A DNA stretch of 64,000 nt, taken from NCBI GenBank assembly GCA_000004985.1, contig GG738877.1. One strand, written 5' to 3'. Numbering within the stretch: position 1 is the first letter of the stretch; each line of letters begins with the position of its first letter. The notes beneath the pieces were generated by a model. The model had not been told where the DNA came from, did not search any database, and was given only the letters and a program-made list of their open reading frames with translations. The stretch comes from Naegleria gruberi. Its lineage: Eukaryota. The position numbers and the translations under genes are program-made. This document shows, piece after piece, positions 4,687 to 60,575 of the stretch.

Positions 4687-5319
4687 ATGGAACAAGATGA
4701 GGAGAAAACCATCCTAAAACTTGATCATCACATCGGATCTAGAGTTTTAACTAATTTTTATAGGACCACTGCCAAGTTTGCCAAGTTGGAAAGTAAACTA
4801 ATCAACTATTCGCAATATCTTTCACTATTCAAGGGTGAATTAAATATTCACTCAAGTACAAAATTATTATTCAGATCGAGTAGAGATGGATTTTCACTTT
4901 CTGATTTTCATTCTCGATGCGACAATCAACCAAAACTTGTAATTATTGTCAAGGCACAAAGGGGAGAGTTATTTGGAGGATACACAAGTCAGAATATCAA
5001 CGTAGCATTGAATTGTTCATCTGACTCTGTGAGGGATAATGATTCCTTTACTTTTCAATTTGGTGGCGAAAAATTGTACGTTTTCAGATTGTTGCCTTCG
5101 AGATTGGAACATGCATTGCATCGATATTCTTCAAGCTATCTTTTTGCTTTTTCTTTCTCTTTCTGGATTGGTGACAATGCCAACCATCAGACACTATCCA
5201 GTTCACATGGCCAAACAGAAGAAAATATTCTTCCTGAAGGTAGATTACCACCAGGGAAACAGTATTTTGGTGGAATGAATTTTCTTATTGAGGACATGGA
5301 GGTTTTCAAGATTGAGTAA
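4687..5319 (+). CDS. TLDc-domain protein
   Basis: 210-aa ATG ORF. The motif LLFRSSRDGFSLSDFHSRCDNQPKLVIIVKAQRGELFGGYTSQ and the C-terminal …LIEDMEVFKIE are typical of the TLDc (OXR1/NCOA7/TBC1D24-type) domain. Confidence 0.5.
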   Translation: MEQDEEKTILKLDHHIGSRVLTNFYRTTAKFAKLESKLINYSQYLSLFKGELNIHSSTKLLFRSSRDGFSLSDFHSRCDNQPKLVIIVKAQRGELFGGYTSQNINVALNCSSDSVRDNDSFTFQFGGEKLYVFRLLPSRLEHALHRYSSSYLFAFSFSFWIGDNANHQTLSSSHGQTEENILPEGRLPPGKQYFGGMNFLIEDMEVFKIE

Positions 5320-6071: not shown

Positions 6072-7578
6072 ATGCACCCACATCATCACCTGCCAGCACA
6101 TTCATCATCAACACACCAACAATTTAATGTTTCATTATCGAGTAGCCTTCGAAGATTATCCGAATCTACTTCATGTTTACTGTTAATTATCATTGCGAGT
6201 ATTGTGCTACTACAATCAATGAATGTTGTTTATGGAGCATTTCCTGCTAATAATATGGAAGTGATTGGAGGTGGAGGAACCTTTGCAGAAGAAGTTCAGT
6301 ACGTATCAGTTTCTTTCTTTTTCTAATATTCGAAACTTTATAGCAAAGGATGTGGTCAATCATTCTTTATTAAACATTTTTCAAATAACATTGAAATGAA
6401 TTACAATGCTACAGGTAAATATTGTCACATTTCAATTTCTAATACTTTCGAATAGGTAGTGGTACTGGTTTATTGAACTTGATCAATTATACATCAACAC
6501 CTTTCGATTATGCAGCTGGTGAATTAATTCCAACCGATGCTCAATATGCTGCTAATCCAGGTTTACAATTACTTCCATTTATTGGTGTAAACGTTTTAGT
6601 TGTTTTCAATTTACCTGGAATTTCTTCTTTAACCTTAAATAGACAAGTAATTGTTGACATTTTTGCTGCTCGTGTGACGTAGGTATTTTTTTACTGTTTT
6701 TGATTTAGTTTACAATTAAAGTAAATGGAATGATGCTTCAATTGCTGCATTAAATCCTTCAATTACTTTGCCAGATGCCAAAATTAAAAGAGTTGTGAGA
6801 TCTGACAGTTCAGGTACTACTGAACTTTTCACATCTGCATTGGCTGCATTTGCTTCAAGTACTGGAGTTTCATGGACACCTGGTGTGCAAAGTATTTTAA
6901 CATGGCCAAGTGAAGCATCAGATAATATCTCAAAACAAAAAGGTACATCTGGTATTTCAAATTACTTGTACCAAACTCCATATACTATTGCATATAATAC
7001 ACCTTCTGCTGTATTTTCATTCACATCAGCAACTATTATTAACAAGTATGGAACTCCAGTTGATGCTTCTGAAACAACTTGTAAGAATGCCATGACAGAT
7101 TTTCAAGATGCATTCGATTCTAAATTCTCTGCAACAATTGTAGATGCTCCAGGTCAAAATTCATATCCAATCTCTGGTTATTCATATCTTATTTATAAGA
7201 GTTCATCAATTGAAGAGTAAGTAGTTGTGAGATGATATTTCATTTATTAACATTTTTAATAGATGTAGCTTGGCTCAAGTCTTGTACAGATATTTCTCTT
7301 ATTTATATAGTGGAAATGTTGATACAATTATTACTGCTGCAAGCTTTGTTCCATTACCAAATAATGTTAAATCTAAAGCACAAGCAACTTTGGATAAATG
7401 GGTTTGTTCCTCGGGCGAAACTGCAGTGACATCTGAAATTGAGATTGTTGCAGTTGTCTTGTTATCTATTGCTGGTGGTTTTGTTTCGGTTGTTTCTCTA
7501 GGTATTGTTTTTGGTGTTTCAGTATATGCTCAATGGAAGAAGAGAAAGGATAGTGAAGAATCTACTGAAACTGACTAA
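6072..7578 (+). CDS. PstS-type (PBP type II / DING-like) phosphate-binding-domain protein with signal/TM start and C-terminal TM anchor; 4 exons
   Basis: Exons are 6072-6298, 6460-6678, 6722-7216 and 7311-7578. The introns (161, 43 and 94 nt) have GTACGT, GTAGGT and GTAAGT donors and AG acceptors. The phases agree with the track ORF frames, and the total is 1209 nt (402 aa). Hydrophobic N-terminus (CLLLIIIASIVLLQS) is followed by VIGGGGTFAEEV (cf. PstS ITGAGATFP and DING DINGGGATLP). Exon 3 ([42 protein letters not shown]) aligns closely with E. coli PstS [42 protein letters not shown]. Ours has [12 protein letters not shown] where PstS has WPITSTTFILIHK. The last exon encodes a TM helix (IVAVVLLSIAGGFVSVVSLGIVFGV) and a short basic tail. 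Confidence 0.6.
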
Positions 7579-7604
7579 GCCCATTTTATTGTACAATATA
7601 AATT

Positions 7605-9977
7605 TTATTGCATGAAATTATTAATTGACCTTAATCCATAGATTATCTCAACTTGCTTTCTTGCTTCGATTGCTAATAAACAAATGTGAATTTTTTCCCT
7701 CGTTCTTAATTTCACACCAGTATTTACAAATTGCTCCTTGGTACATCTTTCTGGATAGCAAACAACAGTCTTGATGTACTTTTTAAGATCAATATTAAGA
7801 AGCTTGTTGACCTTTTCATAATTGAAATCATCATGAGACACACCAAATAGTCTGTGAACATAACACCATATAGCAGCTCTGAATGAAGTCGTATCTACAT
7901 CCTTGATATCATAACATCTATTATCTGTCATGTTATAAATAAACTCAAACTCAGTATCTAATAAATCAGCAGCACCATAGTAAAATCTACTCAATAAAGA
8001 GAATGCATTTTCTTCCCAATTGAAATCATGAATAGAAGTAGTTTCATATTCCTTATTCTTTACATCAAAATCTTTGTAAGTAAAGTCATACTTGTTATGT
8101 TTGTACTTTTTAAGTTTAAGTGAGCGTTCTCTATTGTTAGAGTTTCGTTTGTAAACACCAGATGTGTTAGAGCTTATAAAGGTATGTCCTGCACTTGGTA
8201 TCAGACCCTCACTATCTGATTTCTTTGTGGCTCCTTTCATCATATCCTGTTTTTGAGCTTCCCAGAAAGTAACTGATGCAAAGTTTGGCGTTGAGAAGCA
8301 ATCAAAGTTGTTATAATTACTATATAAATGGTTTGGTACAATTTTAGATGAGTTGTCATTAGTTTCAGTACATTCAAAAGCTTTTTCTCTTTGATGTTTG
8401 TCTATTGGTGTATCGTCATCATCAGCAGTCCTTGTTAATGTTTCAACAAGCCTTTGAGTTTCATTCTTTTGTCTTTGTTTTGATTCCTCACTTTCAGTAA
8501 CAGAGCTGATAATATCTGCAATTGGTGTATCATCATCATCTGGTAAAATACCAATACCATAAATGAATCCCGACAGTGCATGGAAATGAGTCATTATTAT
8601 TACAGCATGAACTAGCTCGGCCATAGTCCATGCATTTTCTCCAACACCATTATTGCTTACTAATTCAGAGATGCTATCTTCATTAAGCATCCATGGCATG
8701 TGGCAAAGTAGTGAATTGAATTTCAATAACTTTTTCAGCTTTTGTGGAATAAACTCGATTCCTTTCAACCACTCCTCATTTCCACCATTTAGTAAAAATT
8801 CTACTTCAAGTCTTCTCACTAAATATTTACAACTATGTCTTGATGCAGCCAAAATAGCAATGTAAGATCTCCAATCTAATGGCAGAGGACCGTTTGATTT
8901 CATCAAAAAATTATATGACTTGTAGTAAATCTCTGCAAAATGGGCGTGTGTGAAAAGAGCTTGAGAAAGATGAGGAATCACACCATTATCAATGAAAATA
9001 GTTTTGAAATGTTCTTGAATGATATGTAAATCATTGAATTGATCACTACCTGATGCCATTTTGTAAATTGGTTTGAAAGAAAGTGGTGAAAAGAATTGAG
9101 AAATTGCTCTCAAATGTCCCGAATTGCAATCTACTTTTTGAATACATTTTACACCATAATTCTTATCTAAATCCTCAATTAATTTTAAAAAGGTTGTTGA
9201 AATATCCTCAAAAGGACTCTCATAAGCAAATCTAGATATAAGAGGAGAATATCTTTGGAAGAAGAGACTTGGCTTCAATGAATCTTCATCATCTCCTGTA
9301 TCCGCTGCATAATTTCGTTCCTTCCAAAGTTTAGCATGGTTTAATATTATTTGTATAACATTATTAATTCCAATCCTTCGTTTCTCAGCTGATTATAAAT
9401 TCATCATTAAATTATTAGCAAATCAAAGAACAAACATACCAATTGGATGTAATATTTGTCTAAAAAAGTGATTTTCTGATAATAAAACACCTTCATCATA
9501 CTCATCAGAGTAAATTTCGTAAATATCAAAGGGATGGTGTGAATCGTGGGTGTGATTAGGTGTTTTAATAGAATGTTGTTGATGTTTAGAATTGTGAACA
9601 GTATTAGTTTGATGTTGATGTTCTTCATCACGTAAACCATTAGGAGAAAAGACAGAATCATCCTCGTGTTGATCGTTAGAGTTACTCAGCCACTGTGGTT
9701 CTTCATCATCATCATGTTTTTGAAACAATTGTTGAGAATTATCCATTAAATGATGACTTTCAGAAGGAGATGTCATTGGTATGGAAGAAGAGAGCCAATC
9801 TGGAGTGCCACCACTGTGATGACTTCCCTGTGTTGGGGATTGTATAAATGATGATGAAGAAATATCAACAGCCAACGATGATAGTGAGAATGGATTGTTG
9901 GGTGATGTGTTGATATTAAGTCGTGAGTTATTATTATTATTCGCTTGATGATTTGATGATGAAGGAAAACCAAACAT
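7605..9977 (-). CDS. Sestrin homolog; 2 exons
   Basis: Exon A is 9440-9977, from the first ATG of track ORF 9423-10067 (itself TTG-initiated) to a GTATGT donor. A 51-nt intron spans 9389-9439, and exon B is 7605-9388. The combined length is 2322 nt (773 aa). The segment LPLDWRSYIAILAASRHSCKYLV…EWLKGIEFIPQKLKKLLKFNSLLCHMPWML…AWTMAELVHAVIIMTHFHALSGFIYGIGILPDDDD aligns with human SESN2 WRHYIAIMAAARHQCSYLV…[30 protein letters not shown]…[33 protein letters not shown]. The C-terminal segment (…RAAIWCYVHRLFGVSHDDFNYEKVNKLL…YIKTVVCYPERCTKEQF) also matches. The N-terminal 180 aa is an N/H/S-rich extension. Confidence 0.75.
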
Positions 9978-33142: not shown

Positions 33143-35005
33143 ATGGCGAACAGAAAGCTTATGGCTGAGGTCGATAGGACCGTAAAAAAAGTGAATGAAG
33201 GTATTGAAAACTTTGATGAATTGGAAGAAAAAGTATATAGTGCCCAAAGTTCTTCGCAAAGGGATAAATTTGAAGGAGAATTGAAAAAGGAAATTAAAAA
33301 ACTACAACGTCTGAGAGAAACAATACGTGGCTGGATATCTGGTAATGAAATTAAAGACAAGGAATTACTGGTGGAAAAGAGGCAACAGATTGAAACAAGA
33401 ATGGAAAGGTTCAAGAAATGCGAGCAGAAAACCAAGATGAAGGCCTATTCTAAAGAAGCCCTGAGTAAAAGTCAAGTCGAAAAACGAAGTAGGAACAAAC
33501 AAAATATTATTCCTGACTCGAAAGAGAAGAAGCAAGCTAAGAAATGGCTGAAGGATATGATAGAAACACTGACGAACGCTGTTGATTCAATTGAAGAAAA
33601 AATTGAAGAAGAAGAAGAAAAGGAAAAGAAGAAGGATGGAGATATGATTGAATCGCATCGATCACGTCAAAGAAAACATGAGGAATATATTGATAAGTTA
33701 AACCAAGTTTACGAGTTTTTGGATAATGATGAAGGTATTACACCTCAAGATTTGGAAGAACTTAAGGAATATGTAGAATACTATGTAGATGAAAATGAAG
33801 AAGCTGAATTTGTGGAAGATGATGATTCATTTGAAACAATATTCAAAAAACATAAGGAATGGGAAGAATCAGCACCAAAGGAGGAACTCGTGGATGTTGA
33901 TGAAGTCAAGGATAGTATTAAAAATTCTGATGAATATGATGATGAAGATTCTGATGAAGGGTTTGATGAAGACTTGGATTCGGATGATGATGATGGTTCA
34001 AGTAATGTTGACGATGATGAAGATTTAAGTTCTCCAATATCAACATCTTCAAAAGATGATGATAAGAAGAAGAAATCTCCTCCTAATACAACACCTGTTG
34101 TTAATGTGAATCCATCGATAACGAAACCTTCAGGAAGTAATCTCACAGTTACAGCTGTTGTATCAAAAGACAAGAAAATTACCAAACAAGCACCTCCAGC
34201 TATTTCTACCTCTCCTAACCAACCATCCACCACCCAACAACCAAGTGGTCAAGTTACTCCAAACACTACCACTCCAACAACAACTAAACCATCTTATAGT
34301 GATTTAGTTAAGTCTCCAAAAACTCCTCTTCAACCACAACAACCAACTCCAACCAATACTTCCACAACAGCAACAACAACAAAACAAGCTGCTACTACTA
34401 CTACAACAGCAACAACAGCATCAGGTTCTACGACTCCAACATCTACCACTATCAAAAAGCCTGCTGTTTCATATATTGATATTGCTCAACAAAATAAGAA
34501 TGCTCCACAAGGTCACAATTTAACAGTTTCTATTAGTGATTCAAATAAGCAACAAGTAACAACACCAACAGTTGCAGCTACAACACCAACAACAACAAGT
34601 AATAAGAATGCTAAACAACAAGCTACAACAACAACAACAGCAACAGCAACTACAACAGCTACAAAGCAGCAACCAACCACAAAGGGTCAACCTGCTCAAC
34701 CAACCAAAAAAGCTCAAACTAATGCCAACCAAAGTACCACCCCAACTAGNNNNNNNNNNNNNNNNNNNNNNNNNNNNNNNNNNNNNNNNNNNNNNNNNNC
34801 AAACCAACTCTCACAACTAATGATTATGAACAATGAACCTATGTTTACTTTGATTTTGAAACACTTTGGTGTCAAAGAATTAAGGATGGTTTCAGTTTTG
34901 AATATGCTTTCCTTGAAGATGAATTGTAAATCCTGTGCAAACTCTTTCCCAACTCCTCATTCCCCCCTTAGTTACCTTTTTATTGACAAAACCTTTCTGA
35001 GATGA
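33143..35005 (+). CDS. CCR4-NOT complex subunit 3/5 (NOT3/NOT5)-like; interrupted by 50-N gap at 34750-34799
   Basis: The N-terminus [108 protein letters not shown] matches the Not3/Not5 N-terminal domain (human CNOT3 [29 protein letters not shown]…[27 protein letters not shown]…[25 protein letters not shown]). An acidic region and a T/P/Q/A-rich low-complexity region follow. The sequence after the gap (to stop 35005) has no NOT-box, so the C-terminal end is uncertain. Confidence 0.55.
   Translation: [620 protein letters not shown]
34750..34799. other. assembly gap (50 N) inside CNOT3-like coding region
   Basis: The N run is seen directly, and it is flanked by T/P/Q-rich low-complexity coding sequence. 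Confidence 0.95.
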
Positions 35006-43874: not shown

Positions 43875-45698
43875 TTAATTTAATTGCATAGATACTTTTG
43901 TGAAAAAGTAATGTACCATTATTGGGATGTTATAAGTCTTGTTCAAAAGTTCAGACATGGCAGTATTTAAATTTTGATTAACATAAACTTGTGGTTGTTC
44001 TTTTTCTTGATCATATTCAACTCTTATTTCAACAAAGTCATTATCTGTAGTTGTCTTGATATAAATAATATCGCTTGGAGTTGAGTACTCTACTTCAACT
44101 CTTCTTTGATTACTATTGTCTGTATGATGTCTTGATGTTCCTGATGTATTATGTGTACAAATATTATCAAGAAGACCCTTAGAAGAATCTTGAACTTGGC
44201 TAAAACATGAAAGAAGAATATCATTAAGTAACATGTGCTTTTTCATGACAGCTAAAGTAAATCTCATTTGATCAAAATTCAAGAATGGAACTCTTCTAAT
44301 AAAAACACCAGAATTTGTTGCCAATTTTTCAGAAATATTTGAAGTAGTTGAAACAAAGTTATATACACTTGATTGTACTTTCTTTGTTGAACTTGTTGAA
44401 TAACCTGATAATAAACAATTTTGAAAAGTTTCCAATACTCTAATATCTCTATTATACTGCTCATTTACACTCATATCCCTAGTAAAGTCAGGTGGTAAAA
44501 TATTTTCAGGTTCTTGTTGTTTTTCTAAACTTGATTTTTTAAGTGATGAAATAATGGATTGAAGGAAATTCAAATTTTTAGCTGTATAAAGAGGTATTAA
44601 AGTTTGTTCAGTAAATACCATAACAGGACATGTTTGTTGTAATGCATTTCCAGCACATCCTTCAAGTGTTACAATAACTTTTCTATCTCTAAAATAATTA
44701 ATAGAAACACCTTCACATATTATTGAAACCTTGTCAGATGGAAAATTTCCTTCTCTTGTAATATAATGTTCAAATTCTCTCATTACACTTGTACTTTTTA
44801 AGAATGAACTTGTATCATTAATTTGTGTAGATCTTAAACTTGCTTTATCTGTAACAATACAATTAGGTCTACTTGCTACGAGATGATATAATTTACAAAC
44901 ATCTAATAATTTCTTTTCAAATAATTCAGGATTCCTATCTTTAACTAGAGTACTCATTAAATCTTCTGAAATTGGTTTAATTTCTTTGTGTTGTGATTCT
45001 GGATTATTTCCTTGTTTTGTTTTTTGAAATTTAATTGATTTTAATTCTTTTGTTTCAGTAAATTCAACATCCAAATTTAAAATATCACAACCCATTGAAT
45101 AACCAGTAACAAGATCTGAAGAACTAATTAAATCTGTTATTGGTAAGGCAGCATAATCTTCCTTTCCAATAAATTCATTCATTTCTTTAGCAACAGAATT
45201 TAAAATTCTTTCAATTATTTGTTGATGTTGATATTGTGTTAATACTTTTTCTGTACATTTTTGAATGGCATCCAAAAGTTCTCTTTCTTGTAATTGAATT
45301 CTATTAAATTCTTTAACTGATTTTGATTGTTGTTGAGTTTTTTCAAGAAATGCTCTTGGTTTTATAGTTAATTGTTCTTCAACTCTTTGTTTTATAATTG
45401 AAATTGCATGTTTAAGAGATTCTCTTCTTTCCAAAATATTATCACTCATATGTAATGGATGAACTAATCCATTATCATTAACTTGTTGTACTTCATTTTC
45501 CATCTTTTTAAGAATTTTTTGTATCTTGTCCCAATAATTAACATCTGCTAATTGTGAATGTTGTTGTTGTTGTGTTGGATTATTTACATCAATATTTGAT
45601 TGATCATTAATTGGTGTTGAAGTTAAAGGTGTACCAACATTACTTGTTGGTGTTGTATTTACTTCCGATAATAAATTAATTGGTGTTGAAGATGACAT
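43875..45698 (-). CDS. hypothetical conserved-looking 607-aa protein
   Basis: ATG ORF (plus 45696-45698 = cat). The N-terminal 60 aa is T/S/N-rich. The remainder is mixed-composition globular-looking sequence with no domain I can name. The stop lies 5 nt from the convergent LRRC45-like stop. Confidence 0.45.
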   Translation of the reverse strand: MSSSTPINLLSEVNTTPTSNVGTPLTSTPINDQSNIDVNNPTQQQQHSQLADVNYWDKIQKILKKMENEVQQVNDNGLVHPLHMSDNILERRESLKHAISIIKQRVEEQLTIKPRAFLEKTQQQSKSVKEFNRIQLQERELLDAIQKCTEKVLTQYQHQQIIERILNSVAKEMNEFIGKEDYAALPITDLISSSDLVTGYSMGCDILNLDVEFTETKELKSIKFQKTKQGNNPESQHKEIKPISEDLMSTLVKDRNPELFEKKLLDVCKLYHLVASRPNCIVTDKASLRSTQINDTSSFLKSTSVMREFEHYITREGNFPSDKVSIICEGVSINYFRDRKVIVTLEGCAGNALQQTCPVMVFTEQTLIPLYTAKNLNFLQSIISSLKKSSLEKQQEPENILPPDFTRDMSVNEQYNRDIRVLETFQNCLLSGYSTSSTKKVQSSVYNFVSTTSNISEKLATNSGVFIRRVPFLNFDQMRFTLAVMKKHMLLNDILLSCFSQVQDSSKGLLDNICTHNTSGTSRHHTDNSNQRRVEVEYSTPSDIIYIKTTTDNDFVEIRVEYDQEKEQPQVYVNQNLNTAMSELLNKTYNIPIMVHYFFTKVSMQLN

Positions 45699-45905
45699 GA
45701 TGATCTTTTAAACACAACTCTAAGTTCTCTGTCTCTCTGATGATTGTATTTTTTTTAAAAATTAAAAATTCGGAACAAGGCTTGAAAAAATTCTCTCAAC
45801 ATTAATTCTTTTGATTCAGCCTCATTCTGCAGCATAGAGAAGGCTATTTTCTCTGAGATCCGATTATAATTTATTATATCATCATTTGTAAATTTTATAT
45901 TAACA

Positions 45906-48138
45906 ATGCCATCAAGAAAAGTAGTATTTACTTCACCTCCTAAAATACTTCAATCACCAACATCATCTTTATCTTCATTAAAACATTCATCTCCATCAAT
46001 GGATTATCATCAATTATCAATGGAACATTTTAATAATAAAGAATATGAACAATCATTGGAAAATTTAAATAAACTCTTAAAAGAAACAACCAATACAACA
46101 GAAATATTTAAAATTAAACATAATATTGCAATAGTAAAATATTTACATGAAAATCATTCGGAAGAAAAATTACTTTTAGAATTGGAAGAAATTAAACAAT
46201 CAACTAGAAAACATTCTAATCATCAATTTCCAATTTTAATTTACAATCAATCTGTATTATATTATAAAAAGGAAAAATATAACAAAGTATTAGAATTATT
46301 GGAGCCTTTATTTGAATCATTAGATTCTAATAATGAAAATTCTATTAATAATCAATTATTAAAATATGATGAATTTCTAGTTTTAAAAATATGTTTTTTA
46401 TTATTAGATATATTTATTGATAATATGAAATCAATTGAAAAATCACAAAATGTAATTAAATATATTGATAATAATTTTCAATCTATTATTCAAAGTACAA
46501 TACCATCTCTTCCACAATTAAATATAACAGAACTTTCTATAACTGAATCAAAATTTAACATTTTATTTTATAAGACAAAATTAGCAATTTTACAAAAAGA
46601 TGAAATTTCAATCATTTTAGATTTTATTCAATCTGCTAATCATGTTATTAAAAATGCAAATATTTCAAAAGAGGAAAATAATTATATTAATAGTATCATG
46701 ACAAGTAAAATTTGTCTACTCGAATGTTTTTTAACTTTAACTAGAAATAATTCTAATAATAATGAAATTTATCATAAAAATATTAAAGAATGTATTCAAT
46801 TATTAACTCATCATAAAGAATCACTATCTCCAATTGTTTATTTTAATAATTTAGGATGTATTTATTTAAAAAAAGAAAATGGAAATTCTACAATGTCACA
46901 ATTTTACTTTTCCAAAGCATCAAAATCAAATAATTCTTTTGCTTGTTATAATTTAGCTTATCAATATTTATTAAGAGAATCTGAGAAAATTAAAGAAATT
47001 ACAAATTGCCTTTGTAAAAATAATCCATTTCTTGATTGTTATGAATTATTTCATAAAGCTTCATTAACAATGTATGATAATCCTTATTTATGGATTAGAA
47101 TGGGAGAATGTATTTTATGTGAAAATCAAAGATTATTGAAAAAGGAAATTTTTGAATCATTTCAACAAATGTCAAATAATTGTTCTGGAAATCAAACAAT
47201 TCATTTACCAGTATTAACAAATTGTGGAATTAAGAAATATTCTTTACAGAAAGATATTTTAGATGTGTAAGTTTATTCTTTTATTTAATATGTGAAACCA
47301 TTTCAATATATATTCATATTAATATTATTAATATTTAATATTATTAATATTTAATATTATTATTAAATGTATTATTTCATTAAATATATAAATTACTAGA
47401 TGTGAAGAAGAATTAACTAAACAAAACAAGTATAATATTGAATTATTAAATGATAGATTTACAAGAAAGAATTTAGAAGAAATGTCATTAGAAATGGCAG
47501 AAAAATGTTTTCATAATTCTTTAATAATTTTATCTAATATTTTATCAGAATATAAAATGAAATATAATTTAAATGATAATTTTCAAACATTACAAAGTAA
47601 TAATGAAATGATTAATCAATCATTTATTAGATTACAACAAGCACTTATTAATGTAACATTAAAATTAGCATATGTTTCATTATGTTTAGATAATCCATTA
47701 ATTTCAATTACACATTGTAAAACTATACTTTCACTTTCAATTTCATATTCAAATTTAAATATATGTCCTGTACAATATACTATAATTGCACTTTCATATG
47801 CATTTGAAGCATTAACAATGACAGATCAATCAGAAAAAGTATTTCAAATAGTTACACCTCAACAATTACAAATTCTAGTTACACATTTACAACAATCATA
47901 TTCAGAAAGTGAGGGTTTATTATATCAACAAATATTACTTTTAAATTTATCAATTGTTCATTTAATTCAAGGAAATTATGAAAAATCACAACAAACTCTT
48001 CATCACATTACTCAAAATATTCATCAATTACCAAATCAAATCAAACCTTACTTTTTATGTGTACAATTATATCTTTTATTAATTGAAGGTAAATCACAAC
48101 AAGCCATTCAATTAATTTCTTCAATAAAAATTCAATAA
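45906..48138 (+). CDS. CCR4-NOT complex subunit 10 (CNOT10)-like TPR protein; 2 exons
   Basis: Exon 1 is 45906-47266. A GTAAGT donor opens a 133-nt AT-microsatellite intron (47267-47399) with a TAG acceptor. Exon 2 is 47400-48138, and the total is 2100 nt (699 aa). YEQSLENLNKLL…FKIKHNIAIVKY…ILIYNQSVLYYKKEKYNKVLELLEPLF…FLVLKICFLLLDIFIDNMKSIEKS parallels human CNOT10 YDACLQHLACLQ…YKIILNTAVAEF…[28 protein letters not shown]…[22 protein letters not shown]. Confidence 0.55.
47311..47367. repeat. AT microsatellite (attaatatttaat-type) inside CNOT10-like intron
   Basis: The sequence tattaatattattaatatttaatattattaatatttaatattattattaaat is a tandem imperfect 13-16-nt unit within the 47267-47399 intron. 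Confidence 0.6.
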
Positions 48139-48354
48139 TTAACATCATAATGACCTTTCAATTCACTCTCTCAACACTTCAAATTTGAATAACGAAAAAC
48201 TTTGTTTATATTATGAAATGATTGGAATTCTAATCACTTTCTATCCCATATATTGTCCACTTACCCATTAACTTCCAATCACGTTCAATCTAAAAATACA
48301 AAACAAAATATTGAAAAAAACATCACCAAACATCATCAAAAGGCTTTGAAAAGG

Positions 48355-49440
48355 ATGATGAATAATCAAAACCAACAACAACAAGGAACATTTCCATTTG
48401 ATAGTGCCATTCTATCTGATAATTCACAATATACCTATGGAGGAGAACAATCGTGTACATATATTTGTTTAACTGCTATTGAATACTTTTTAAATAATTA
48501 TTCCAAGTTTAGAATTCCGATTTCATCATCAACATCAAAAGATCTTAAAATTACAAAGAATGATATTGATTATGTATTACAATTAGGTGTTTCAAGAGAT
48601 AGAAAAGTTGGACTAACATCATGTGATGATGTTTATTCTAATAACGAATATTTTCAAAAAACACTTGAATTGAAATCAATGCACATTTCAAAATTAAGTG
48701 ATAGTCTTTCTTTTAAACAATTACTTAAAGAAATGGAATCAAAATCAATTGATACAAAATCATCAAGTGATGTAACTGCTCTAGTTTTAACTAAACCACC
48801 TGAAACTATTGCTATATTTTATGATTGTTATGGTTATTTAAATGGAAAAGAGAATGAATATTATCCATGGTTTATATTTGATTCACATCCAAGAAAATAT
48901 AGTAGAGGTGGTGGTTTTTATTTATTTAAGGATTTATCTAAAATTGAACAATATTTGAAAAAATTATTTATTGATGATTTTGATTATTATAGAAATATGT
49001 TTGATTCTTATCAAGCTAAATCTCATGTCATGTTTGAAGGTACTATTGTAACATTAAAACCTCTTTCAAATTTGAAAACTATTCAACCACCACAAACTGT
49101 AAATCAACCACAAATTGTAAATAGTCCAAGTCAACCAGTCAAACAAGAATCAAACATTCCAAATAATACTAATAATAATAGCACTCCAAAAGAATCTCAA
49201 AAACAAGTAATAGTTCAACAACAACCAGTAGATCAAAATCAATTGATTGAACAATTAATGAAAAAGATTGATCAATTAACACAAGTTAACAAACAACAAT
49301 TTGAAGAAATTCAAACACTTACCTACTTGTTAAAAGAAGAACAAGAAAATCATCAAAGAACTGCATTAGAAAATCAAAAGCTTAAAAAATCAACCAAACA
49401 ACAAGAAAATGTAATTGATAAGATTTTCTCTTCCTTTTAA
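48355..49440 (+). CDS. hypothetical protein with C-terminal coiled coil
   Basis: The track ORF starts at TTG 48253, and the first ATG is at 48355 (MMNNQNQQQQGTFPFD…). A Cys-containing middle region is followed by a Q/N-rich region and a coiled-coil tail. No domain was recognised. Confidence 0.35.
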   Translation: MMNNQNQQQQGTFPFDSAILSDNSQYTYGGEQSCTYICLTAIEYFLNNYSKFRIPISSSTSKDLKITKNDIDYVLQLGVSRDRKVGLTSCDDVYSNNEYFQKTLELKSMHISKLSDSLSFKQLLKEMESKSIDTKSSSDVTALVLTKPPETIAIFYDCYGYLNGKENEYYPWFIFDSHPRKYSRGGGFYLFKDLSKIEQYLKKLFIDDFDYYRNMFDSYQAKSHVMFEGTIVTLKPLSNLKTIQPPQTVNQPQIVNSPSQPVKQESNIPNNTNNNSTPKESQKQVIVQQQPVDQNQLIEQLMKKIDQLTQVNKQQFEEIQTLTYLLKEEQENHQRTALENQKLKKSTKQQENVIDKIFSSF

Positions 49441-49697
49441 TGACATTCTAATTTAAAATGTACATTTCCTTGGTGATGGTGTAAATAAACAAAATAACTT
49501 CAATCCATTAATGTAGTTTGCTTGGTTACTTCAAGAGTTATTTCTCCTCCTACTCCGATTAAAGGCTTGTTCGTTCTCCTCAATTTCAAATCTAAAAAAA
49601 TAACAACAACAAAATATCATTTTGCAATCATCTATTTTACTAGGAGAGATTGCTGATTTTTGGATTAAATTATTATAAAACCTCGAATCGGATCAAT

Positions 49698-50913
49698 ATG
49701 AAAAGATTATCAACAATCATATTTATAATTTCTTGTATTTTGTTATTCTTTACTTTAATAACATCAACAAAGGCTGATGATGATGGATTATGTTTAATGA
49801 CTAGTAATGGATTTGAGAATGGAACAAATAATTTCCCAACAGTTAAGAATAGTGTACCTTTTTATTTGGATCCACAAGCTTCATCATCTCTTGGAACAAT
49901 TTGTCCACATTTAGTTGGTCAAAAAGTTTGTTGTAATTCTACTCAAGTTTCTACAATGGTTTCTCGTTTTACACTTTTAGATGCAACGTATGTTGTTTTA
50001 ATATTATGTAATAGTTTTAATTGTTATATGAAATTGTGTTACAATGATTGTACAATCACATTTGGAATTTCATTGAACATTTGGATTAATCTATTGATTA
50101 ATATTTATCAAATATATTTTAATGATAATTGTTTTAATATTGATATGAAAAATTAGATTTTGGCGTTGTATTGCTTGTGTTTTAAATTTAAAGAAAATGT
50201 GGTGTGATTTTACATGCAGTAATCAACAAGGACATTTTCTTACCATTGAATCAATGTATGAAACACCAAAATATGCTCAATATATTAAGGAAGTTAATTT
50301 TTATGTTTCATTAGATTTCCAAAATCAAATTTGGGAAAGTTGTAAAGATGTTAAATTAGGTCAATTACCAGTTAAAGATACATATGCAAATGTTAGAGCT
50401 TATTTACAAGGAATGGTAAATTTAGCAGTTCCAAATCCAAATATTCAATACATTTTCCAAACAAGTGAATCACATCTTGAAAAACTTACAATTACAAAAA
50501 ATATTACAAAAACACCACTCAGATATGATCAATCACCAAATTATGAAGATATTTCAGTTCCATCAGTAGAACATTACAAAACTAGAAAAATTCAAGATTT
50601 CAATAATTCAACAACTCAATTTTATAATGGAACAATGTTAGCATGTGAATTATCATGTGATTGTACATATTGTGAAAAGGCTTGTGGAACAATTACACCT
50701 GATTATTCATGTAAAATCTTTGGATCACCATGTTTTGTTGTTGCATCAATTGGTGGAAGTGTTATTTTAGGTTTATTTATTATTGCAATCATTTCTGCTC
50801 TATTCGAAAGAGGTTTTAATTGGTTTAGAAATAGAAATAACAAAACGAATGAAAATATTGAAGTTAATCAAGAAAATTCTTTAAATTCAGATAGAAGATA
50901 TAGAACATTTTAA
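49698..50913 (+). CDS. stand-alone NPC1 N-terminal (sterol-binding) domain protein with single C-terminal TM; 2 exons
   Basis: ATG at 49698 with a signal peptide (MKRLSTIIFIISCILLFFTLITSTKA). Exon 1 ends at about 49985, and an AT-rich intron of about 200 nt precedes exon 2 (about 50190-50913). DGLCLMTSNGFENG…ICPHLVGQKVCCNSTQ…MWCDFTCSNQQGHFL…KEVNFYVSLDFQNQIWESCKDV…CELSCDCTYCEKAC parallels the human NPC1 NTD CVWYGECG…LCPGFFFGNVSLCCDVRQ…LFCELTCSPRQSQFL…[22 protein letters not shown]…CSCQDCSIVC. A TM helix follows (VVASIGGSVILGLFIIAIISALF), then a short tail and the stop. Confidence 0.55.
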
Positions 50914-50978
50914 TTTATTACCTTTTTGATATAAAAGTCACATTACCATTAAATAATAATAATAATCATAATATTACT

Positions 50979-52061
50979 ATGAATACTACCACAACAACAG
51001 CTCCTCAACAACTACTACAACAACCACAATTTATGAATAGTCCATCACTTCATTATAATAATTTACCTCCGGACCATATTCTCAATAAACAAAGATCTAA
51101 TATTAGTATTAAACAAATTAATAAGAATATTCAAACTATTACAAATAATACTAATACTAATAATAATACTAATACTACTAGTAATAATAATATAACATCA
51201 CCATCAATAATGAATATTCCACCTAATAATAATAATAATCCGATAACATCAATATTAAATAATAATAACAATTCAATAATGATGTTAAATAATGGTCAAC
51301 CAATAATAATGACAACATCAAATCAACAAATTAATGTTGGAGGAGGAGGTGATTTAATGTTACCTCCTAATAATAATAATAATATTATGAATAATAATAG
51401 CTCTAATTTAAATGTTAATAATAATTTAAATTCATCATTAAATTCAATCAATAATAATAATATCAATAATACTACTACTGAAAATAGTAATAATAATAAC
51501 AATTTAATATTAACAAATCGTACACAATTTTTACTTGATTCATCATCAATAATAAATAATGTAGAAATGTTATTTAATATTCGAATTGGAAATTCTAAAC
51601 AAATAGATATGGAAATTACTAAAAGTGGAAATGAAATTAAACATTATTCTAAATCATGTATTCATGATTTAGATTCACTTCAAAGATATTGGTCAGAATG
51701 TTATAGAATTGAAAGTGAACATTTAAATGATAAACCATTAATGTATATTCCAATTACAGGTTTAATTAATATTAAAGTATTTAAATTATTTAATAATATT
51801 CCAATAATGGAACATAATTTAGAAAAGAAATATGATTTTAGACAATCTGATTCTTTAATAGCTCCAATTAAATTTGATAATAATATTGTAATTGTTTTAA
51901 AATTAATGAAAATGGATTATGTTGAATTTATTGGTTTACAATCATTTGATTTTTATTTAATTAAATCATCACAATCTTCCACTTCTTCATCAACAATAAC
52001 ATTACAATCATCTTCCACTTCTTCCTCTTCAACTGGTCCAATTATTTTAAATAATCAATAA
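50979..52061 (+). CDS. hypothetical Asn-rich protein
   Basis: 360-aa ATG ORF. About 200 aa is N/T/S homopolymer-rich low complexity, encoded as (aat)n. The C-terminal 150 aa is globular-looking (…YWSECYRIESEHLNDKPLMYIPITGLINIKVFKLF…) with no recognised domain. Confidence 0.35.
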   Translation: MNTTTTTAPQQLLQQPQFMNSPSLHYNNLPPDHILNKQRSNISIKQINKNIQTITNNTNTNNNTNTTSNNNITSPSIMNIPPNNNNNPITSILNNNNNSIMMLNNGQPIIMTTSNQQINVGGGGDLMLPPNNNNNIMNNNSSNLNVNNNLNSSLNSINNNNINNTTTENSNNNNNLILTNRTQFLLDSSSIINNVEMLFNIRIGNSKQIDMEITKSGNEIKHYSKSCIHDLDSLQRYWSECYRIESEHLNDKPLMYIPITGLINIKVFKLFNNIPIMEHNLEKKYDFRQSDSLIAPIKFDNNIVIVLKLMKMDYVEFIGLQSFDFYLIKSSQSSTSSSTITLQSSSTSSSSTGPIILNNQ

Positions 52062-52230
52062 AATTCAAAAAATAAAATATTCAAACCCTTTCCATTCATA
52101 TTTTAAAAAGCTTTTAGCCTTTGATTTTGTTTTATTTTAATAATAAATTTTTGAAAGCCTTTAAAAAAAATTCATCAACATATCATATTTTAAACCAATA
52201 GCCTAAAACAATTCATCATCATCTTTAAAA

Positions 52231-52994
52231 ATGTCATCATCAAATGAAATTGAACAATCCAATGAATTGGAAGCACTCCAATCAATTTATCCAACAGAAT
52301 TAACTATTAATTCATCAACAAATTTTAAAATTGAAATTTATCCCTATACAGTCGAATCGGAAACAGAAACTAATAGTGTTGGTATTACATTGGAAGTTAA
52401 TTATACTCCTGATTATCCAGAATCAGTTATACCTTCATTTGAAATTTATAATACAAGAGGTTCTATTACAAAACGTGAAATGAGTGAATTAAAAGACATG
52501 TTAATAGAAACAGCTAATCAATTTTTAGGTACATCATGTGTATTTACTATTGCTAGTACAATTCAAGAATATTTAGTTCAATATCAACAACGTGAATCTG
52601 CTCTAAATGAACAAGATAATTCATCATCTTAACAACAAAGAATGATGAAACATCATCAAAGGATAGATTTACAATGGATTCTGAAGTATTAGCATCAAAT
52701 ATTGGACGAGGAACACCTGTTACTATTGAAAACTTTAGAGAGTGGCGTGATAAATTTGTTGTTGAACAAAAGAAAATTATGGAAAAACAAAGAATTGAAA
52801 AGGCTAAGAAATTACCAGGTCCTAAAAGTGGTAGAGAAATATTTGAAGAACGTCAACAACTTTTGATCAGTAAAATTGGTGAAGCAGCTGCTGCTAATCA
52901 ATACGTTGAAGAGGATGATATTGATGAAGATTTATTCTTGGAAGATGAAGATGAAGAAGAAGTCAATAATGAAGATGAACAAGATGAAGAATAA
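52231..52994 (+). CDS. RWD-domain protein (RWDD1/Gir2-like), copy A; reading frame broken by 1-nt deletion near 52630
   Basis: ATG at 52231. The N-terminal RWD domain is NELEALQSIYPTELTINSSTNFKIEIYPYTV…LEVNYTPDYPESVIPSFEIY. Track ORFs 52231-52632 and 52674-52994 are the two halves in frames differing by -1. Copy B (61946-62470) reads through as …NEQDNSSSLTTKNDETSSKDRF… with one extra base. The downstream part GTPVTIENFREWRDKF…AKKLPGPKSGREIFEE matches human RWDD1 GTPVTIENFLNWKAKF. Confidence 0.55.
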
Positions 52995-56572: not shown

Positions 56573-56756
56573 TTTATTGAAAATCAAAAGGTTGGTTCCT
56601 TTTCAACAAAACCTCAATAAAATTACATTTTTGATTTTAGATTACTGAATTCCAAAACACACAATTTCATAGCTTCCTTCTAGATTTCAAAGAAGGATTT
56701 AATCTCTGTATCTTAATTCTTTAATTGTTCCAATTTTAAATGGAATTTGAAAAAAA

Positions 56757-60384: not shown

Positions 60385-60575
60385 TGATATTATTAATTTG
60401 GAAAATGAAAGAAATAATTTAAATATGAATAATAGTGATTATATTAAATATTGTAATTTAGTTCCTTTTAGATTGGTACCTTTTATTTATTAGAAATAAA
60501 ATTGTATTTGTAATTATGTATGTAGATTTAATGATTAGTTTATCAAATATGGTTTATCAACTAATTTTATGTGCT

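What the first reader, a model, noticed from the sequence alone, without database searches (positions are those of the whole stretch)
6072..7578. Genuine eukaryotic, intron-containing PstS/DING-family phosphate-binding protein with a membrane anchor
The four-exon model is internally consistent (phases agree with three independent track ORFs, and the total is 1209 nt). It encodes a periplasmic-phosphate-binding-protein (PBP type II) fold with striking identity to bacterial PstS in the phosphate-binding segment ([15 protein letters not shown] versus [27 protein letters not shown] versus WPITSTTFILIHK) and a DING-like GGGGTF N-terminal motif. Unlike bacterial PstS it has spliceosomal introns, host-like codon usage, a hydrophobic leader and a C-terminal TM helix plus cytoplasmic tail. 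That makes it a cell-surface, type-I-anchored phosphate-binding ectodomain. Eukaryotic DING/PstS-like proteins have been purified repeatedly, but their genes have largely been elusive and are often attributed to bacterial contamination. A bona fide spliced eukaryotic gene is therefore notable. It could act as a phosphate sensor or receptor, or as a scavenger.
Basis: partly seen in the sequence, partly recalled or inferred. Interest (0 to 1): 0.6.

Follow-up and report, generated by a model that had tools for sequence, protein, structure and literature searches.

The report
Membrane-anchored PstS-like phosphate binder, Naegleria
This is a real, intron-containing Naegleria gruberi gene for a cell-surface protein whose outer part is a bacterial-type phosphate-binding domain; it belongs to a large, little-studied eukaryotic family, so it is a new member of a known kind and not the missing "DING" gene.

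Summary
The gene at 6072-7578 (+) is real, but the exon model needs correcting. It has five exons and four 41-46 nt GT-AG introns (CDS 1332 nt, 443 aa), not four exons and 1209 nt.

The window is Naegleria gruberi nuclear DNA: both flanking ORFs match annotated N. gruberi proteins exactly.

The protein has a signal peptide, a complete PstS-type phosphate-binding domain, one TM helix and a 13-residue tail (KKRKDSEESTETD). All phosphate-ligand positions are kept; the only change is Asp56 to Glu.

Evidence that the gene is genuine and eukaryotic:
- Three introns share position and phase with the N. fowleri and N. lovaniensis orthologues, and one also with Willaertia.
- Codon usage matches the neighbouring genes (r = 0.95).
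- dN/dS is 0.165.
- All 7 exonic differences from an environmental N. gruberi contig are synonymous.

It is PstS-like, not DING. It is not unique either. N. gruberi already has an annotated "periplasmic phosphate binding protein-like" paralogue and a PstS-TM-cyclase. PstS ectodomains also occur on receptor cyclases, class C GPCR-like proteins and mollusc receptor guanylate cyclases.

No pstCAB genes lie nearby. The most likely role is surface phosphate binding that feeds sensing, as a tail-less relative of the receptor forms. That role is inferred, not shown.

The parts
6072..6298 (+). Exon 1 (227 nt, ends in phase 2). Contains ATG 6072, a 34-residue polar N-region, the signal-peptide hydrophobic core C35-L47 (6174-6212), the predicted cleavage site VYG|A after G55 (ends 6236), and the GGGGTF ligand loop with T70/F71 (6279-6284), equivalent to E. 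coli Thr10/Phe11.
   Evidence: Sequence and ORF; gene model; hydropathy; ligand mapping from the HMMER alignment to PDB PstS. The cleavage site is inferred from the -3/-1 rule, not computed.
6299..6343 (+). Intron 1 (45 nt, GTACGT...ATAG, GC 27%, phase 2).
   Evidence: Same position and phase as the annotated introns of N. fowleri and N. lovaniensis (alignment column 77); boundaries.
6344..6414 (+). Encodes KGCGQSFFIKHFSNNIEMNYNAT.
   Evidence: It is needed to keep the frame and it aligns to all orthologues and to bacterial PstS.
6415..6455 (+). Intron 2 (41 nt, GTAAAT...ATAG, phase 1). Specific to N. gruberi.
   Evidence: Reading through gives a stop codon. Two of the nine differences from the 99.3%-identical environmental contig L086 fall in these 41 nt. 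The intron is absent from the N. fowleri, N. lovaniensis and Willaertia models.
6456..6678 (+). Exon 3 (223 nt). Contains the G-S-G-T-G loop with S101 (6458-6460, equivalent to Ser38) and E122 (6521-6523, at the Asp56 position).
6679..6721 (+). Intron 3 (43 nt, GTAGGT...AAAG, phase 2).
   Evidence: Position and phase shared with N. fowleri and N. lovaniensis (column 180). The ORF fragment P0183, from another Naegleria-like source, ends exactly here.
6722..7216 (+). Exon 4 (495 nt). Contains RSDSSGT (6798-6818), equivalent to Arg135, Asp137, Ser139, Gly140 and Thr141, and the [12 protein letters not shown] strand.
   Evidence: The three differences from L086 in this exon are all synonymous.
7217..7262 (+). 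Intron 4 (46 nt, GTAAGT...ATAG, phase 2).
   Evidence: Position and phase shared with N. fowleri, N. lovaniensis and Willaertia magna (column 355). Acceptor 7262 restores the conserved EEC motif; the alternative acceptors 7268 and 7310 delete Cys340.
7263..7578 (+). Exon 5 (316 nt including the TAA stop). Contains the end of the PstS domain with Cys340 and Cys387, the TM helix I400-A428 (7444-7530), the cytosolic tail KKRKDSEESTETD (7537-7575) and the stop codon 7576-7578.
   Evidence: Hydropathy. The TM helix and the basic-then-acidic tail are conserved in N. fowleri and Willaertia. The AF2 model of the orthologue has a helix at 389-426. The four differences from L086 in this exon are all synonymous.

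Best explanation
Positions 6072-7578 (+) are a functional nuclear gene of Naegleria gruberi. No matching N. gruberi gene model was found in the protein collections searched.

Shown or strongly supported:
- The gene has five exons and four very short GT-AG introns.
- It encodes a 443-aa type I membrane protein: a signal peptide, one complete PstS-type (class II periplasmic-binding-protein, Venus-flytrap) domain, a single TM helix and a 13-residue basic-then-acidic cytosolic tail.
- The phosphate pocket is intact. The residues are T70, F71 (backbone), S101, R200, D202, S204, G205 and T206, with Glu122 in place of Asp56.
- The gene is under purifying selection.
- There is no PstC/PstA/PstB partner nearby.

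Family context: it is one paralogue of a large eukaryotic family in which PstS ectodomains sit on single-pass or 7TM proteins. Many of these are receptors: class III cyclases (including N. gruberi NAEGRDRAFT_63671), kinase-homology plus guanylate-cyclase receptors, and class C GPCR-type 7TM proteins.

Inferred mechanism: the ectodomain closes on orthophosphate at the cell surface, or in the topologically equivalent phagosome or vacuole lumen. Because the protein has no catalytic cytosolic domain, it would act through a partner, as a ligand-binding, modulatory or decoy subunit of the PstS-cyclase phosphate-sensing receptors. This is analogous to the tail-less natriuretic-peptide clearance receptor NPR-C relative to NPR-A/B. 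I put this sensing-accessory reading at about 0.45 and a nutritional Pi-capture role at about 0.3. The identity and architecture of the gene I put at about 0.9.
For: Organism and context:
- The flanking ORFs are exact matches to N. gruberi XP_002675560.1 and to sestrin XP_002675647.1, on a 394.7-kb scaffold.

Gene model:
- The only stop-free model that keeps all conserved segments has five exons.
- Three of the four introns share position and phase with the N. fowleri and N. lovaniensis orthologues, and one also with Willaertia.
- These orthologues lie on 0.13-0.98 Mb eukaryotic contigs among eukaryotic genes.

Host-like composition:
- GC3 is 0.18.
- Relative synonymous codon usage (RSCU) correlates at r = 0.947 with neighbouring genes and at -0.16 with a Chloroflexota pstS.

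Selection:
- dN/dS is 0.165 between N. fowleri and N. lovaniensis at dS 0.66.
- A 99.3%-identical environmental contig differs at 9 sites: 2 in intron 2 and 7 in exons, all 7 synonymous.

Family and fold:
- PF12849 scores above its cut-off; TIGR00975 gives E = 1.5e-50.
- PDB PstS chains match at 3e-26.
- The AF2 model of the N. fowleri orthologue has pLDDT 87.5. It superposes on PstS structures at TMt 0.87-0.90, and has N- and C-terminal helices.

Ligand set: intact in the window protein and its orthologues.

No transporter partner: there are no tblastn hits to PstC, PstA or PstB in the 64-kb window. The closest bacterial homologue sits in a pstSCAB operon.

Family context:
- PstS+TM+cyclase occurs in Willaertia, Andalucia and N. 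gruberi.
- PstS+kinase-homology domain+guanylate cyclase occurs in molluscs, nemerteans and an annelid.
- PstS+7tm_3 occurs in fungi and protists.
- All of these keep the ligand set.
- In a neighbour-joining (NJ) tree of 267 domains, the heterolobosean orthologue clade has 98% bootstrap support. Its sister is never Chloroflexota (0 of 100 replicates). In 70 of 100 replicates the sister is drawn only from a defined set of TM-anchored proteins; those traced to a source are eukaryotic.
Against: - No transcript evidence was available, so splicing rests on comparative evidence only.
- The exact 443-aa product is not in the protein collection, so no independent annotation supports it.
- TIGR00975 scores 172 bits, below its 205-bit equivalog cut-off.
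- Position 56 is Glu, not Asp, so phosphate affinity and specificity are untested.
- Nothing here shows localisation, a partner protein, or any response to phosphate. The sensing-accessory role is argued only from the architectures of paralogues.
- Some close paralogues (P0139, P0213, P0235, P0148) have lost ligand residues, so the family is not uniformly phosphate-binding.
- The NJ tree is crude at this level of divergence.
Confidence: 0.75

Rival explanations
1. Nutritional role. The tethered PstS domain captures scarce orthophosphate at the surface or in the phagosome lumen and hands it to a eukaryotic secondary Pi transporter. This would resemble the membrane-tethered substrate-binding proteins of Gram-positive bacteria and archaea, or the binding proteins used by TRAP and tripartite tricarboxylate (TTT) secondary transporters.
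For: The ligand set is intact and typical of high-affinity PstS. The short tail has no signalling domain. The bacterial relatives are transporter components.
Against: No PstCAB genes lie in the window. From general knowledge, no eukaryotic secondary Pi transporter is known to use a binding protein. Most eukaryotic relatives carry signalling modules rather than transporter modules.
Confidence: 0.3
2. A recent, lineage-specific horizontal transfer of pstS from a Chloroflexota (Anaerolineae-like) bacterium into Heterolobosea.
For: The seven best prokaryotic genome hits are all Chloroflexota, at 30-35% identity and E = 6e-54 to 2e-46. An insertion with a Cys340/Cys387 pair is shared with these bacteria and is absent from the proteobacterial and cyanobacterial PstS in the set.
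Against: The same Cys pair is present in most eukaryote-type family members, including mollusc receptor guanylate cyclases. In the NJ bootstrap analysis the sister of the Naegleria/Willaertia clade is never Chloroflexota (0 of 100 replicates); it is other TM-anchored proteins, those traced being eukaryotic. Introns are shared between Naegleria and Willaertia. A Chloroflexota-type origin therefore fits better for the eukaryotic family as a whole, and it would be old.
Confidence: 0.1
3. It is a DING protein, that is, the elusive eukaryotic DING gene.
For: A glycine-rich N-terminal loop (IGGGGTF) recalls DINGGGATL. DING structures are detectable homologues.
Against: DING structures match at about 1e-10 over only about 110 residues, against 3e-26 over the full length for PstS. 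The fold match is poorer: TMt 0.62-0.70 and rmsd 5-6 A, against 0.87-0.90 and 2.5-2.9 A. There is no DINGGG N-terminus. The Gly-rich loop is the common PstS ligand loop.
Confidence: 0.03
4. Bacterial contamination, or a decaying pseudogene wrongly stitched into an ORF.
For: The domain is of bacterial type. No matching gene model or transcript was found in the collections searched.
Against: Both flanking genes are exact N. gruberi genes. The introns interrupt the frame. Codon usage is host-like. Orthologues in three other heterolobosean assemblies share intron positions. dN/dS is 0.165. All 7 exonic polymorphisms are synonymous.
Confidence: 0.02
5. The pocket binds a different ligand, such as arsenate, phosphite, sulfate or a phospho-compound, because of the Asp56-to-Glu change.
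For: Glu replaces Asp56 in the three Naegleria species, whereas Willaertia keeps Asp. From established structural work on E. coli PstS, Asp56 is the residue that discriminates protonated phosphate from sulfate.
Against: The carboxylate is retained. All other ligand positions are identical. Glu occurs at this position in 26 of 267 family members with otherwise intact sites.
Confidence: 0.1

Closest known systems
Bacterial PstS, the phosphate ABC-transporter substrate-binding protein (TIGR00975; E. coli PBP, 1IXH; Chloroflexota PstS such as L004)
   Same: Same fold: the orthologue model superposes at TMt 0.87-0.90. The match covers the full domain. The phosphate-ligand set is the same. The Cys340/Cys387 pair is shared with the Chloroflexota-type subfamily.
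   Different: It is encoded by a spliced eukaryotic gene. It is anchored by a C-terminal TM helix with a cytosolic tail, not soluble or lipid-anchored. There is no pstCAB operon (compared). It scores below the TIGR00975 equivalog cut-off (172 against 205 bits). Position 56 is Glu instead of Asp.
N. gruberi paralogues: XP_002672891.1 'periplasmic phosphate binding protein-like protein' (P0184) and NAEGRDRAFT_63671 (P0306, PstS+TM+class III cyclase)
   Same: Same organism, with the same PstS ectodomain plus TM design. P0184 also has only a very short tail.
   Different: Only 29% identical to P0184. P0306 carries a cyclase domain that the window protein lacks.
Orthologues: N. fowleri FDP41_010842 (P0001), N. 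lovaniensis C9374_010256 (P0002) and Willaertia magna ABK040_009442 (P0003)
   Same: 46-56% identity with the same architecture: a signal peptide, a PstS domain, a TM helix and a KKR(K/M) plus acidic tail. Intron positions are shared.
   Different: Their introns are longer (43-204 nt). N. gruberi has one extra intron. There is no conserved microsynteny within +/-8 kb. The N. lovaniensis model is truncated before the TM helix.
Eukaryotic receptors with PstS (PBP_like_2) ectodomains: PstS+7tm_3 class C GPCR-like proteins (Spizellomyces SPPG_06488, PMC3251606; Plasmodiophora, PMC4815078; Calcarisporiella P0163) and PstS+kinase-homology+guanylate-cyclase receptors of molluscs, nemerteans and an annelid (P0152 and others)
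   Same: A homologous ectodomain with the same ligand set and Cys pair, exposed on the extracytosolic side of a membrane protein.
   Different: Those proteins carry a signalling module (7TM, kinase-homology plus cyclase). The window protein has only a 13-residue tail.
DING proteins (PfluDING 2Q9T, HPBP 2V3Q)
   Same: Same superfamily and the same phosphate-binding principle.
   Different: A distant match only: E about 1e-10 over about 110 residues, TMt 0.62-0.70. There is no DINGGG N-terminus. DING proteins are soluble, without a TM anchor.
NPR-C, the natriuretic-peptide clearance receptor (from general knowledge, as a functional analogy only)
   Same: A tail-less single-pass paralogue of receptor cyclases that shares their Venus-flytrap-type ectodomain.
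   Different: Its ectodomain is a type I PBP (ANF_receptor), not PstS, and its ligand is a peptide. There is no homology beyond the superfold. The analogy was not tested here.

Membership tests
PstS / PBP_like_2 phosphate-binding domain family | Significant full-length match to the family profile | tested here: met
   PF12849 scores 65.1 bits against a cut-off of 27. TIGR00975 gives E = 1.5e-50 over profile positions 3-310 of 315. PDB PstS chains match at 3e-26.
PstS / PBP_like_2 phosphate-binding domain family | Two-lobed class II PBP fold that superposes on solved PstS structures | tested here: met
   Tested on the N. fowleri orthologue (54% identity). The AF2 model has pLDDT 87.5. Best PDB matches are PstS at TMt 0.87-0.90 and rmsd 2.5-2.9 A. 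The window protein itself could not be submitted.
PstS / PBP_like_2 phosphate-binding domain family | Phosphate-ligating residues (E. coli Thr10, Phe11 backbone NH, Ser38, Asp56, Arg135, Ser139, Gly140, Thr141, plus Asp137) | tested here: met
   The window protein has T70, F71, S101, E122, R200, D202, S204, G205 and T206. Eight are identical, and Asp56 is replaced by Glu, which is conservative. Binding itself was not measured.
PstS as a component of the PstSCAB ABC importer (TIGR00975 equivalog) | Score above the curated equivalog cut-off | tested here: not met
   172.1 bits against a cut-off of 205. The Chloroflexota homologue L004 scores 360 bits.
PstS as a component of the PstSCAB ABC importer (TIGR00975 equivalog) | Genomic association with pstC, pstA and pstB | tested here: not met
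   tblastn with L004 PstC, PstA and PstB finds nothing in the 64-kb window (best E = 0.2). L004 itself is a pstS-pstC-pstA-pstB operon. The rest of the N. gruberi genome could not be searched.
DING proteins | DINGGG(A/T)L N-terminus of the mature protein | tested here: not met
   The predicted mature N-terminus is AFPANNMEVIGGGGTF. Only the generic Gly-rich PstS loop is shared.
DING proteins | Close sequence and structure similarity to known DING proteins (PfluDING, HPBP) | tested here: not met
   E about 1e-10 over about 110 residues. TMt 0.62-0.70 and rmsd 5-6 A, worse than for every canonical PstS.
Spliced eukaryotic nuclear gene | GT-AG introns that interrupt the frame, conserved in orthologues, within a eukaryotic genomic context | tested here: met
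   There are four GT-AG introns. Three are shared in position and phase with other Naegleria species, and one also with Willaertia. The flanking genes are exact N. gruberi genes. Transcript evidence could not be obtained.
Type I single-pass membrane protein | N-terminal signal sequence, one C-terminal TM helix, positive-inside cytosolic tail | tested here: met
   Hydropathy peaks at residues 35-53 and 400-418, followed by KKRK. The same layout is found in N. fowleri and Willaertia. The orthologue model has helices at 9-32 and 389-426. This is a prediction only: no SignalP-type tool or experiment was available. The charged tail argues against a GPI anchor.
Eukaryotic PstS-ectodomain receptor family (cyclase, guanylate cyclase or 7tm_3 fusions) | The PstS ectodomain groups with those of the eukaryotic receptors rather than with bacterial PstS | tested here: inconclusive
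   NJ bootstrap: the sister of the heterolobosean clade is Chloroflexota in 0 of 100 replicates, and is drawn only from a defined set of TM-anchored proteins in 70 of 100. 108 of 113 eukaryote-type domains fall into one clade, which also holds 20 sequences classed as prokaryotic. Distance methods are weak at this divergence.
Eukaryotic PstS-ectodomain receptor family (cyclase, guanylate cyclase or 7tm_3 fusions) | A cytosolic or 7TM signalling module | tested here: not met
   Only a 13-residue tail follows the TM helix, and the stop codon is at 7576. Sestrin begins 27 bp downstream on the other strand.

The most novel reading that the evidence does not exclude
The window gene is the tail-less, ligand-binding or decoy partner of a PstS-ectodomain receptor-cyclase system (NAEGRDRAFT_63671 in N. 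gruberi). If so, Naegleria would read extracellular orthophosphate directly into cAMP. More broadly, PstS ectodomains on cyclases, guanylate-cyclase receptors (including those of molluscs, nemerteans and an annelid) and class C GPCR-like proteins would then be a widespread, uncharacterised class of eukaryotic extracellular phosphate sensors.
Probability: 0.3. Interest if true: 0.75.

Novelty: new member of a known kind. Interest (0 to 1): 0.42.

Why it matters
Taken alone, the gene is a probably unannotated member of a family already present in Naegleria and in many other eukaryotes.

What does matter is the context the gene opens up. How eukaryotic cells sense extracellular phosphate is still poorly understood (from general knowledge).

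Here, a domain whose bacterial form binds phosphate with very high specificity sits, with its ligand set intact, on the outside of several kinds of eukaryotic membrane protein:
- receptor cyclases in Discoba;
- kinase-homology plus guanylate-cyclase receptors in molluscs, nemerteans and an annelid, auto-named 'ANP receptor-like';
- class C GPCR-type 7TM proteins in fungi and protists.

In the literature I could search, these fusions are mentioned only in passing (PMC3251606, PMC4815078), and no functional study turned up.

The Naegleria short-tail form is a small, tractable protein for testing whether the eukaryotic domain still binds phosphate.

Tried and rejected
The N. fowleri orthologue was used as a proxy there and for structure prediction.
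- The look-up of encoding contigs for the two flanking N. gruberi proteins returned nothing. I therefore could not see whether the reference annotation calls a gene here. 'Unannotated' rests on the exact-sequence look-up and on the absence of any N. gruberi hit. The word-indexed search also failed to list P0135, the exon-4 ORF, so its recall is imperfect.
- No microsynteny was found between the N. gruberi window and the N. fowleri, N. lovaniensis or Willaertia loci.
- A search with the Willaertia PstS-cyclase ectodomain found no Naegleria relatives. The N. gruberi cyclase paralogue emerged only from the exhaustive search and the cluster look-up.
- Literature searches found nothing relevant for Naegleria+PstS, the N. 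fowleri locus tag, Naegleria+'phosphate binding protein', PstS+guanylyl cyclase, or PstS+cyclase+protist.
- I considered that the AT-rich 44-64 kb part of the window might be an integrated giant-virus element, and rejected the idea. The ORFs look like ordinary low-complexity Naegleria genes, plus an acyl-CoA dehydrogenase, and the region contains assembly gaps and a duplicated kilobase.
- The alternative intron-4 acceptor at 7268 was rejected because it deletes the conserved Cys340.
- A GPI anchor was rejected because a charged tail follows the hydrophobic segment.
Full report
**What is at the coordinates**

The region reads from ATG 6072 to TAA 7576-7578 on the + strand. Four ORF segments lie there in different frames.

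I tested GT-AG combinations. Two models keep one open frame and all the segments that align to homologues, and they differ only in the intron-4 acceptor (7262 or 7268). The orthologue alignment favours 7262, because it keeps the conserved EEC motif.

The resulting model has five exons: 6072-6298, 6344-6414, 6456-6678, 6722-7216 and 7263-7578. The four introns are 45, 41, 43 and 46 nt long. The CDS is 1332 nt including the stop, or 443 aa.

All four introns begin GTA(C/A/G)(G/A)T, end (A/T)AG, and are 21-27% GC.

An exhaustive dynamic-programming search shows that stop-free three-intron models also exist. Its introns are 6299-6459, 6679-6721 and 7217-7310.

It is internally consistent, but it deletes 41 residues: KGCGQSFFIKHFSNNIEMNYNATGS and ECSLAQVLYRYFSYLYS. 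These are conserved in every orthologue and in bacterial PstS. They include the Ser38-equivalent phosphate ligand and Cys340.

**Whose DNA it is**

The ORF at 4687-5319 is an exact match to N. gruberi XP_002675560.1 (NAEGRDRAFT_69302). The ORF on the minus strand, which ends 27 bp after the stop codon, is an exact match to N. gruberi sestrin XP_002675647.1. Both are recorded on a 394.7-kb scaffold.

So the window is Naegleria gruberi nuclear DNA. The 443-aa product itself is not in the 15-billion-protein collection, and no N. gruberi protein appeared among the close hits.

The gene therefore seems to lack a model in the reference annotation. I could not inspect that annotation directly.

**Is it a real, expressed-type gene?**

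No transcript data were available, so the case is comparative.

*Orthologues*
- They exist in N. fowleri (55% identity), N. lovaniensis (56%) and Willaertia magna (46%).
- They lie on contigs of 0.98 Mb, 0.39 Mb and 0.13 Mb, among plainly eukaryotic genes such as Vps52, ZIP, RNA cyclase, Zn2Cys6 and peptidase M1.

*Introns*
- I mapped the annotated introns of these orthologues onto a protein alignment.
- Three of my four introns coincide in position and phase with those of N. fowleri and N. lovaniensis (columns 77, 180 and 355, all phase 2).
- The last one also coincides with a Willaertia intron.
- Intron 2 is specific to N. gruberi, but it is needed for the frame.

*Composition*
- Codon usage matches the neighbouring genes (RSCU r = 0.947, GC3 0.18).
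- It is unlike a Chloroflexota pstS (r = -0.16, GC3 0.60).

*Selection*
- dN/dS between N. fowleri and N. lovaniensis is 0.165 at an unsaturated dS of 0.66.
- A 1,346-bp contig from an ENA metagenome is 99.3% identical to window 6406-7751.
- Its nine differences are two in the 41-nt intron 2 and seven in exons 4 and 5. All seven exonic differences are synonymous in my frame.

Together these results exclude contamination, a dead pseudogene, and a chance ORF.

**What the protein is**

*Family*
- Pfam gives PBP_like_2 (PF12849; E = 1e-17, above the gathering score).
- NCBIfam gives PstS TIGR00975 at E = 1.5e-50 over nearly the whole profile. The score of 172 bits is below the 205-bit equivalog cut-off.
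- Solved PstS proteins match at up to 3e-26 over residues 59-380. DING proteins match only about 110 residues at about 1e-10.

*Fold*
- The model has mean pLDDT 87.5, an N-terminal helix and a C-terminal helix at 389-426.
- Its best PDB matches are all PstS (TMt 0.87-0.90, rmsd 2.5-2.9 A). DING structures come later (TMt 0.62-0.70, rmsd 5-6 A).

*Phosphate ligands*
I used the HMMER alignment to mature-numbered PstS to locate them.

| E. coli residue | Window residue |
|---|---|
| Thr10 | T70 |
| Phe11 | F71 |
| Ser38 | S101 |
| Asp56 | E122 |
| Arg135 | R200 |
| Asp137 | D202 |
| Ser139 | S204 |
| Gly140 | G205 |
| Thr141 | T206 |

The only change is Asp to Glu at position 56. It is shared by the three Naegleria species, while Willaertia keeps Asp. 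It occurs in 26 of 267 family members.

*Topology*
- Hydropathy gives two strong segments: residues 35-53 (the leader, with a VYG|A site that fits the -3/-1 rule) and residues 400-418. The second is followed by KKRKDSEESTETD.
- The TM helix and a basic-then-acidic tail are conserved in N. fowleri (KKRKALGEPISEE) and Willaertia (KKRMAEEEDN).
- The N. lovaniensis model stops early, but the TM helix and tail are encoded just downstream in another frame.
- A charged tail after the hydrophobic stretch argues for a type I TM anchor rather than a GPI signal.

**Context: not a lone oddity**

An exhaustive HMMER search with the N. fowleri orthologue found 5,892 relatives. The top 150 are dominated by long membrane proteins with one to four PstS-like domains.

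*Architectures* (Pfam scans and source look-ups):
- PstS+TM+class III cyclase: Willaertia KAL9656567, Andalucia godoyi ANDGO_00956 and ANDGO_06328, and N. gruberi NAEGRDRAFT_63671.
- PstS+TM+kinase-homology+guanylate cyclase: Haliotis, Patella, Pecten, Argopecten, Saccostrea, Biomphalaria, the nemerteans Lineus and Tubulanus, and the annelid Paralvinella. These are auto-named 'atrial natriuretic peptide receptor-like' or 'retinal guanylyl cyclase-like'.
- PstS+7tm_3 (class C GPCR type): for example the fungus Calcarisporiella.
- Multi-PstS proteins in Chromosphaera, Entosiphon, Fabomonas, Palpitomonas, Endostelium and Thecamonas.

*Naegleria itself*
- N. gruberi has an annotated short-tail paralogue, XP_002672891.1, named 'periplasmic phosphate binding protein-like protein'. 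It is 29% identical to the window protein.
- The receptor forms keep the full ligand set.

*Literature*
- PBP_like_2+7tm_3 fusions are mentioned in passing for Spizellomyces (PMC3251606) and Plasmodiophora (PMC4815078).
- I found no functional study.

**Origin**

*Evidence pointing to Chloroflexota*
- The best prokaryotic genome matches are all Chloroflexota (Anaerolineae, Chloroflexia; 30-35% identity).
- One of them sits in a canonical pstS-pstC-pstA-pstB operon.
- These bacteria share with the Naegleria proteins an insertion carrying Cys340, together with Cys387.

*Evidence against a Naegleria-specific transfer*
- The same Cys pair is present in most eukaryote-type members, including the mollusc receptors.
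- In an NJ tree of 267 domains, the Naegleria/Willaertia clade has 98% bootstrap support.
- That clade never has Chloroflexota as its sister (0 of 100 replicates). In 70 of 100 replicates the sister consists only of TM-anchored proteins from a defined set.
- Two of those proteins lie on 57-kb contigs full of eukaryotic genes.
- 108 of 113 eukaryote-type domains fall into one clade. That clade also contains 20 sequences classed as prokaryotic.

I read this as an old acquisition of a Chloroflexota-type PstS by eukaryotes, followed by diversification. I do not read it as a recent Naegleria-specific transfer. The method is crude and the deep branching is unresolved.

**How it most likely works**

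Shown: there is an intact PstS pocket on a predicted extracytosolic domain, tethered by one helix. There is no signalling domain, and no pstCAB genes lie within 64 kb.

Inferred: the domain closes on orthophosphate outside the cell, or in a phagosome or vacuole lumen.

The eukaryotic relatives are mostly receptors, and Naegleria itself has a PstS-cyclase. For these reasons I favour a role as a ligand-binding, modulatory or decoy partner in phosphate sensing (about 0.45). The analogy is NPR-C, which is tail-less relative to the receptor guanylate cyclases; this analogy comes from general knowledge.

A nutritional capture role, feeding a secondary transporter, is the main rival (about 0.3).

The acidic Ser/Thr-rich tail could be a sorting signal. 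That is speculation.

**Verdict**

It is wrong about DING and about rarity. The gene is a new, seemingly unannotated member of a known but uncharacterised kind.

Noticed in passing
window 44000-64000: GC falls from about 32% to 19-27% even when N is excluded. The ORFs there are long, rich in Asn and Ser, and mostly without a Pfam family. An acyl-CoA dehydrogenase lies at 55403-56572 (+). I considered an integrated giant-virus element, but the genes look like ordinary Naegleria low-complexity genes.
   Followed up: partly
window 34750-34799, 53506-54155, 59188-60384, 61896-61945; 52471-53500 and 61946-62976: There are four runs of N (assembly gaps). A 1,031-bp segment is repeated at 99.8% identity, and both copies abut gaps. 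This is probably assembly redundancy rather than a biological duplication.
   Followed up: yes
P0152, P0308-P0340: Animal receptor guanylate cyclases with a PstS-like (PF12849) ectodomain in place of the usual ANF_receptor domain. They occur in many molluscs, in nemerteans (Lineus, Tubulanus) and in the annelid Paralvinella. They are auto-annotated as 'atrial natriuretic peptide receptor 2-like', 'retinal guanylyl cyclase-like' or 'speract receptor'. The three examined (P0152, P0172, P0180) keep the full phosphate-ligand set.
   Followed up: partly
P0200, P0163, P0146, P0247, P0267; P0124: PstS-like ectodomains fused to class C GPCR-type 7TM domains (7tm_3), for example in the fungus Calcarisporiella thermophila. 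There is also a 2,386-aa Chromosphaera perkinsii protein with four PstS domains, Ephrin_rec_like repeats and a TRP-like channel region.
   Followed up: partly
P0067, P0107: Prokaryote-style proteins with an N-terminal Ser/Thr protein kinase, a TM segment and a C-terminal PstS domain. One lies on a 606-kb ENA contig. They may be phosphate-sensing receptor kinases in bacteria.
   Followed up: no
L003 9619-9708 (N. lovaniensis): The annotated N. lovaniensis orthologue (393 aa) ends just inside the TM segment. The rest of the TM helix and the tail are encoded immediately downstream in another frame. The model is truncated by an annotation or frameshift problem.
   Followed up: partly
L085 11428-13935: On an unidentified protist contig (JGI 3300062347), a short-tail PstS-like gene (P0235) lies next to a gene for a NIT+guanylate cyclase+RGS protein. 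This is a possible functional neighbourhood of anion-sensing cyclases.
   Followed up: no
window 7579-7604: The PstS-like gene and the sestrin gene converge, with only 26 bp between their stop codons. This implies overlapping or extremely short 3' UTRs.
   Followed up: no
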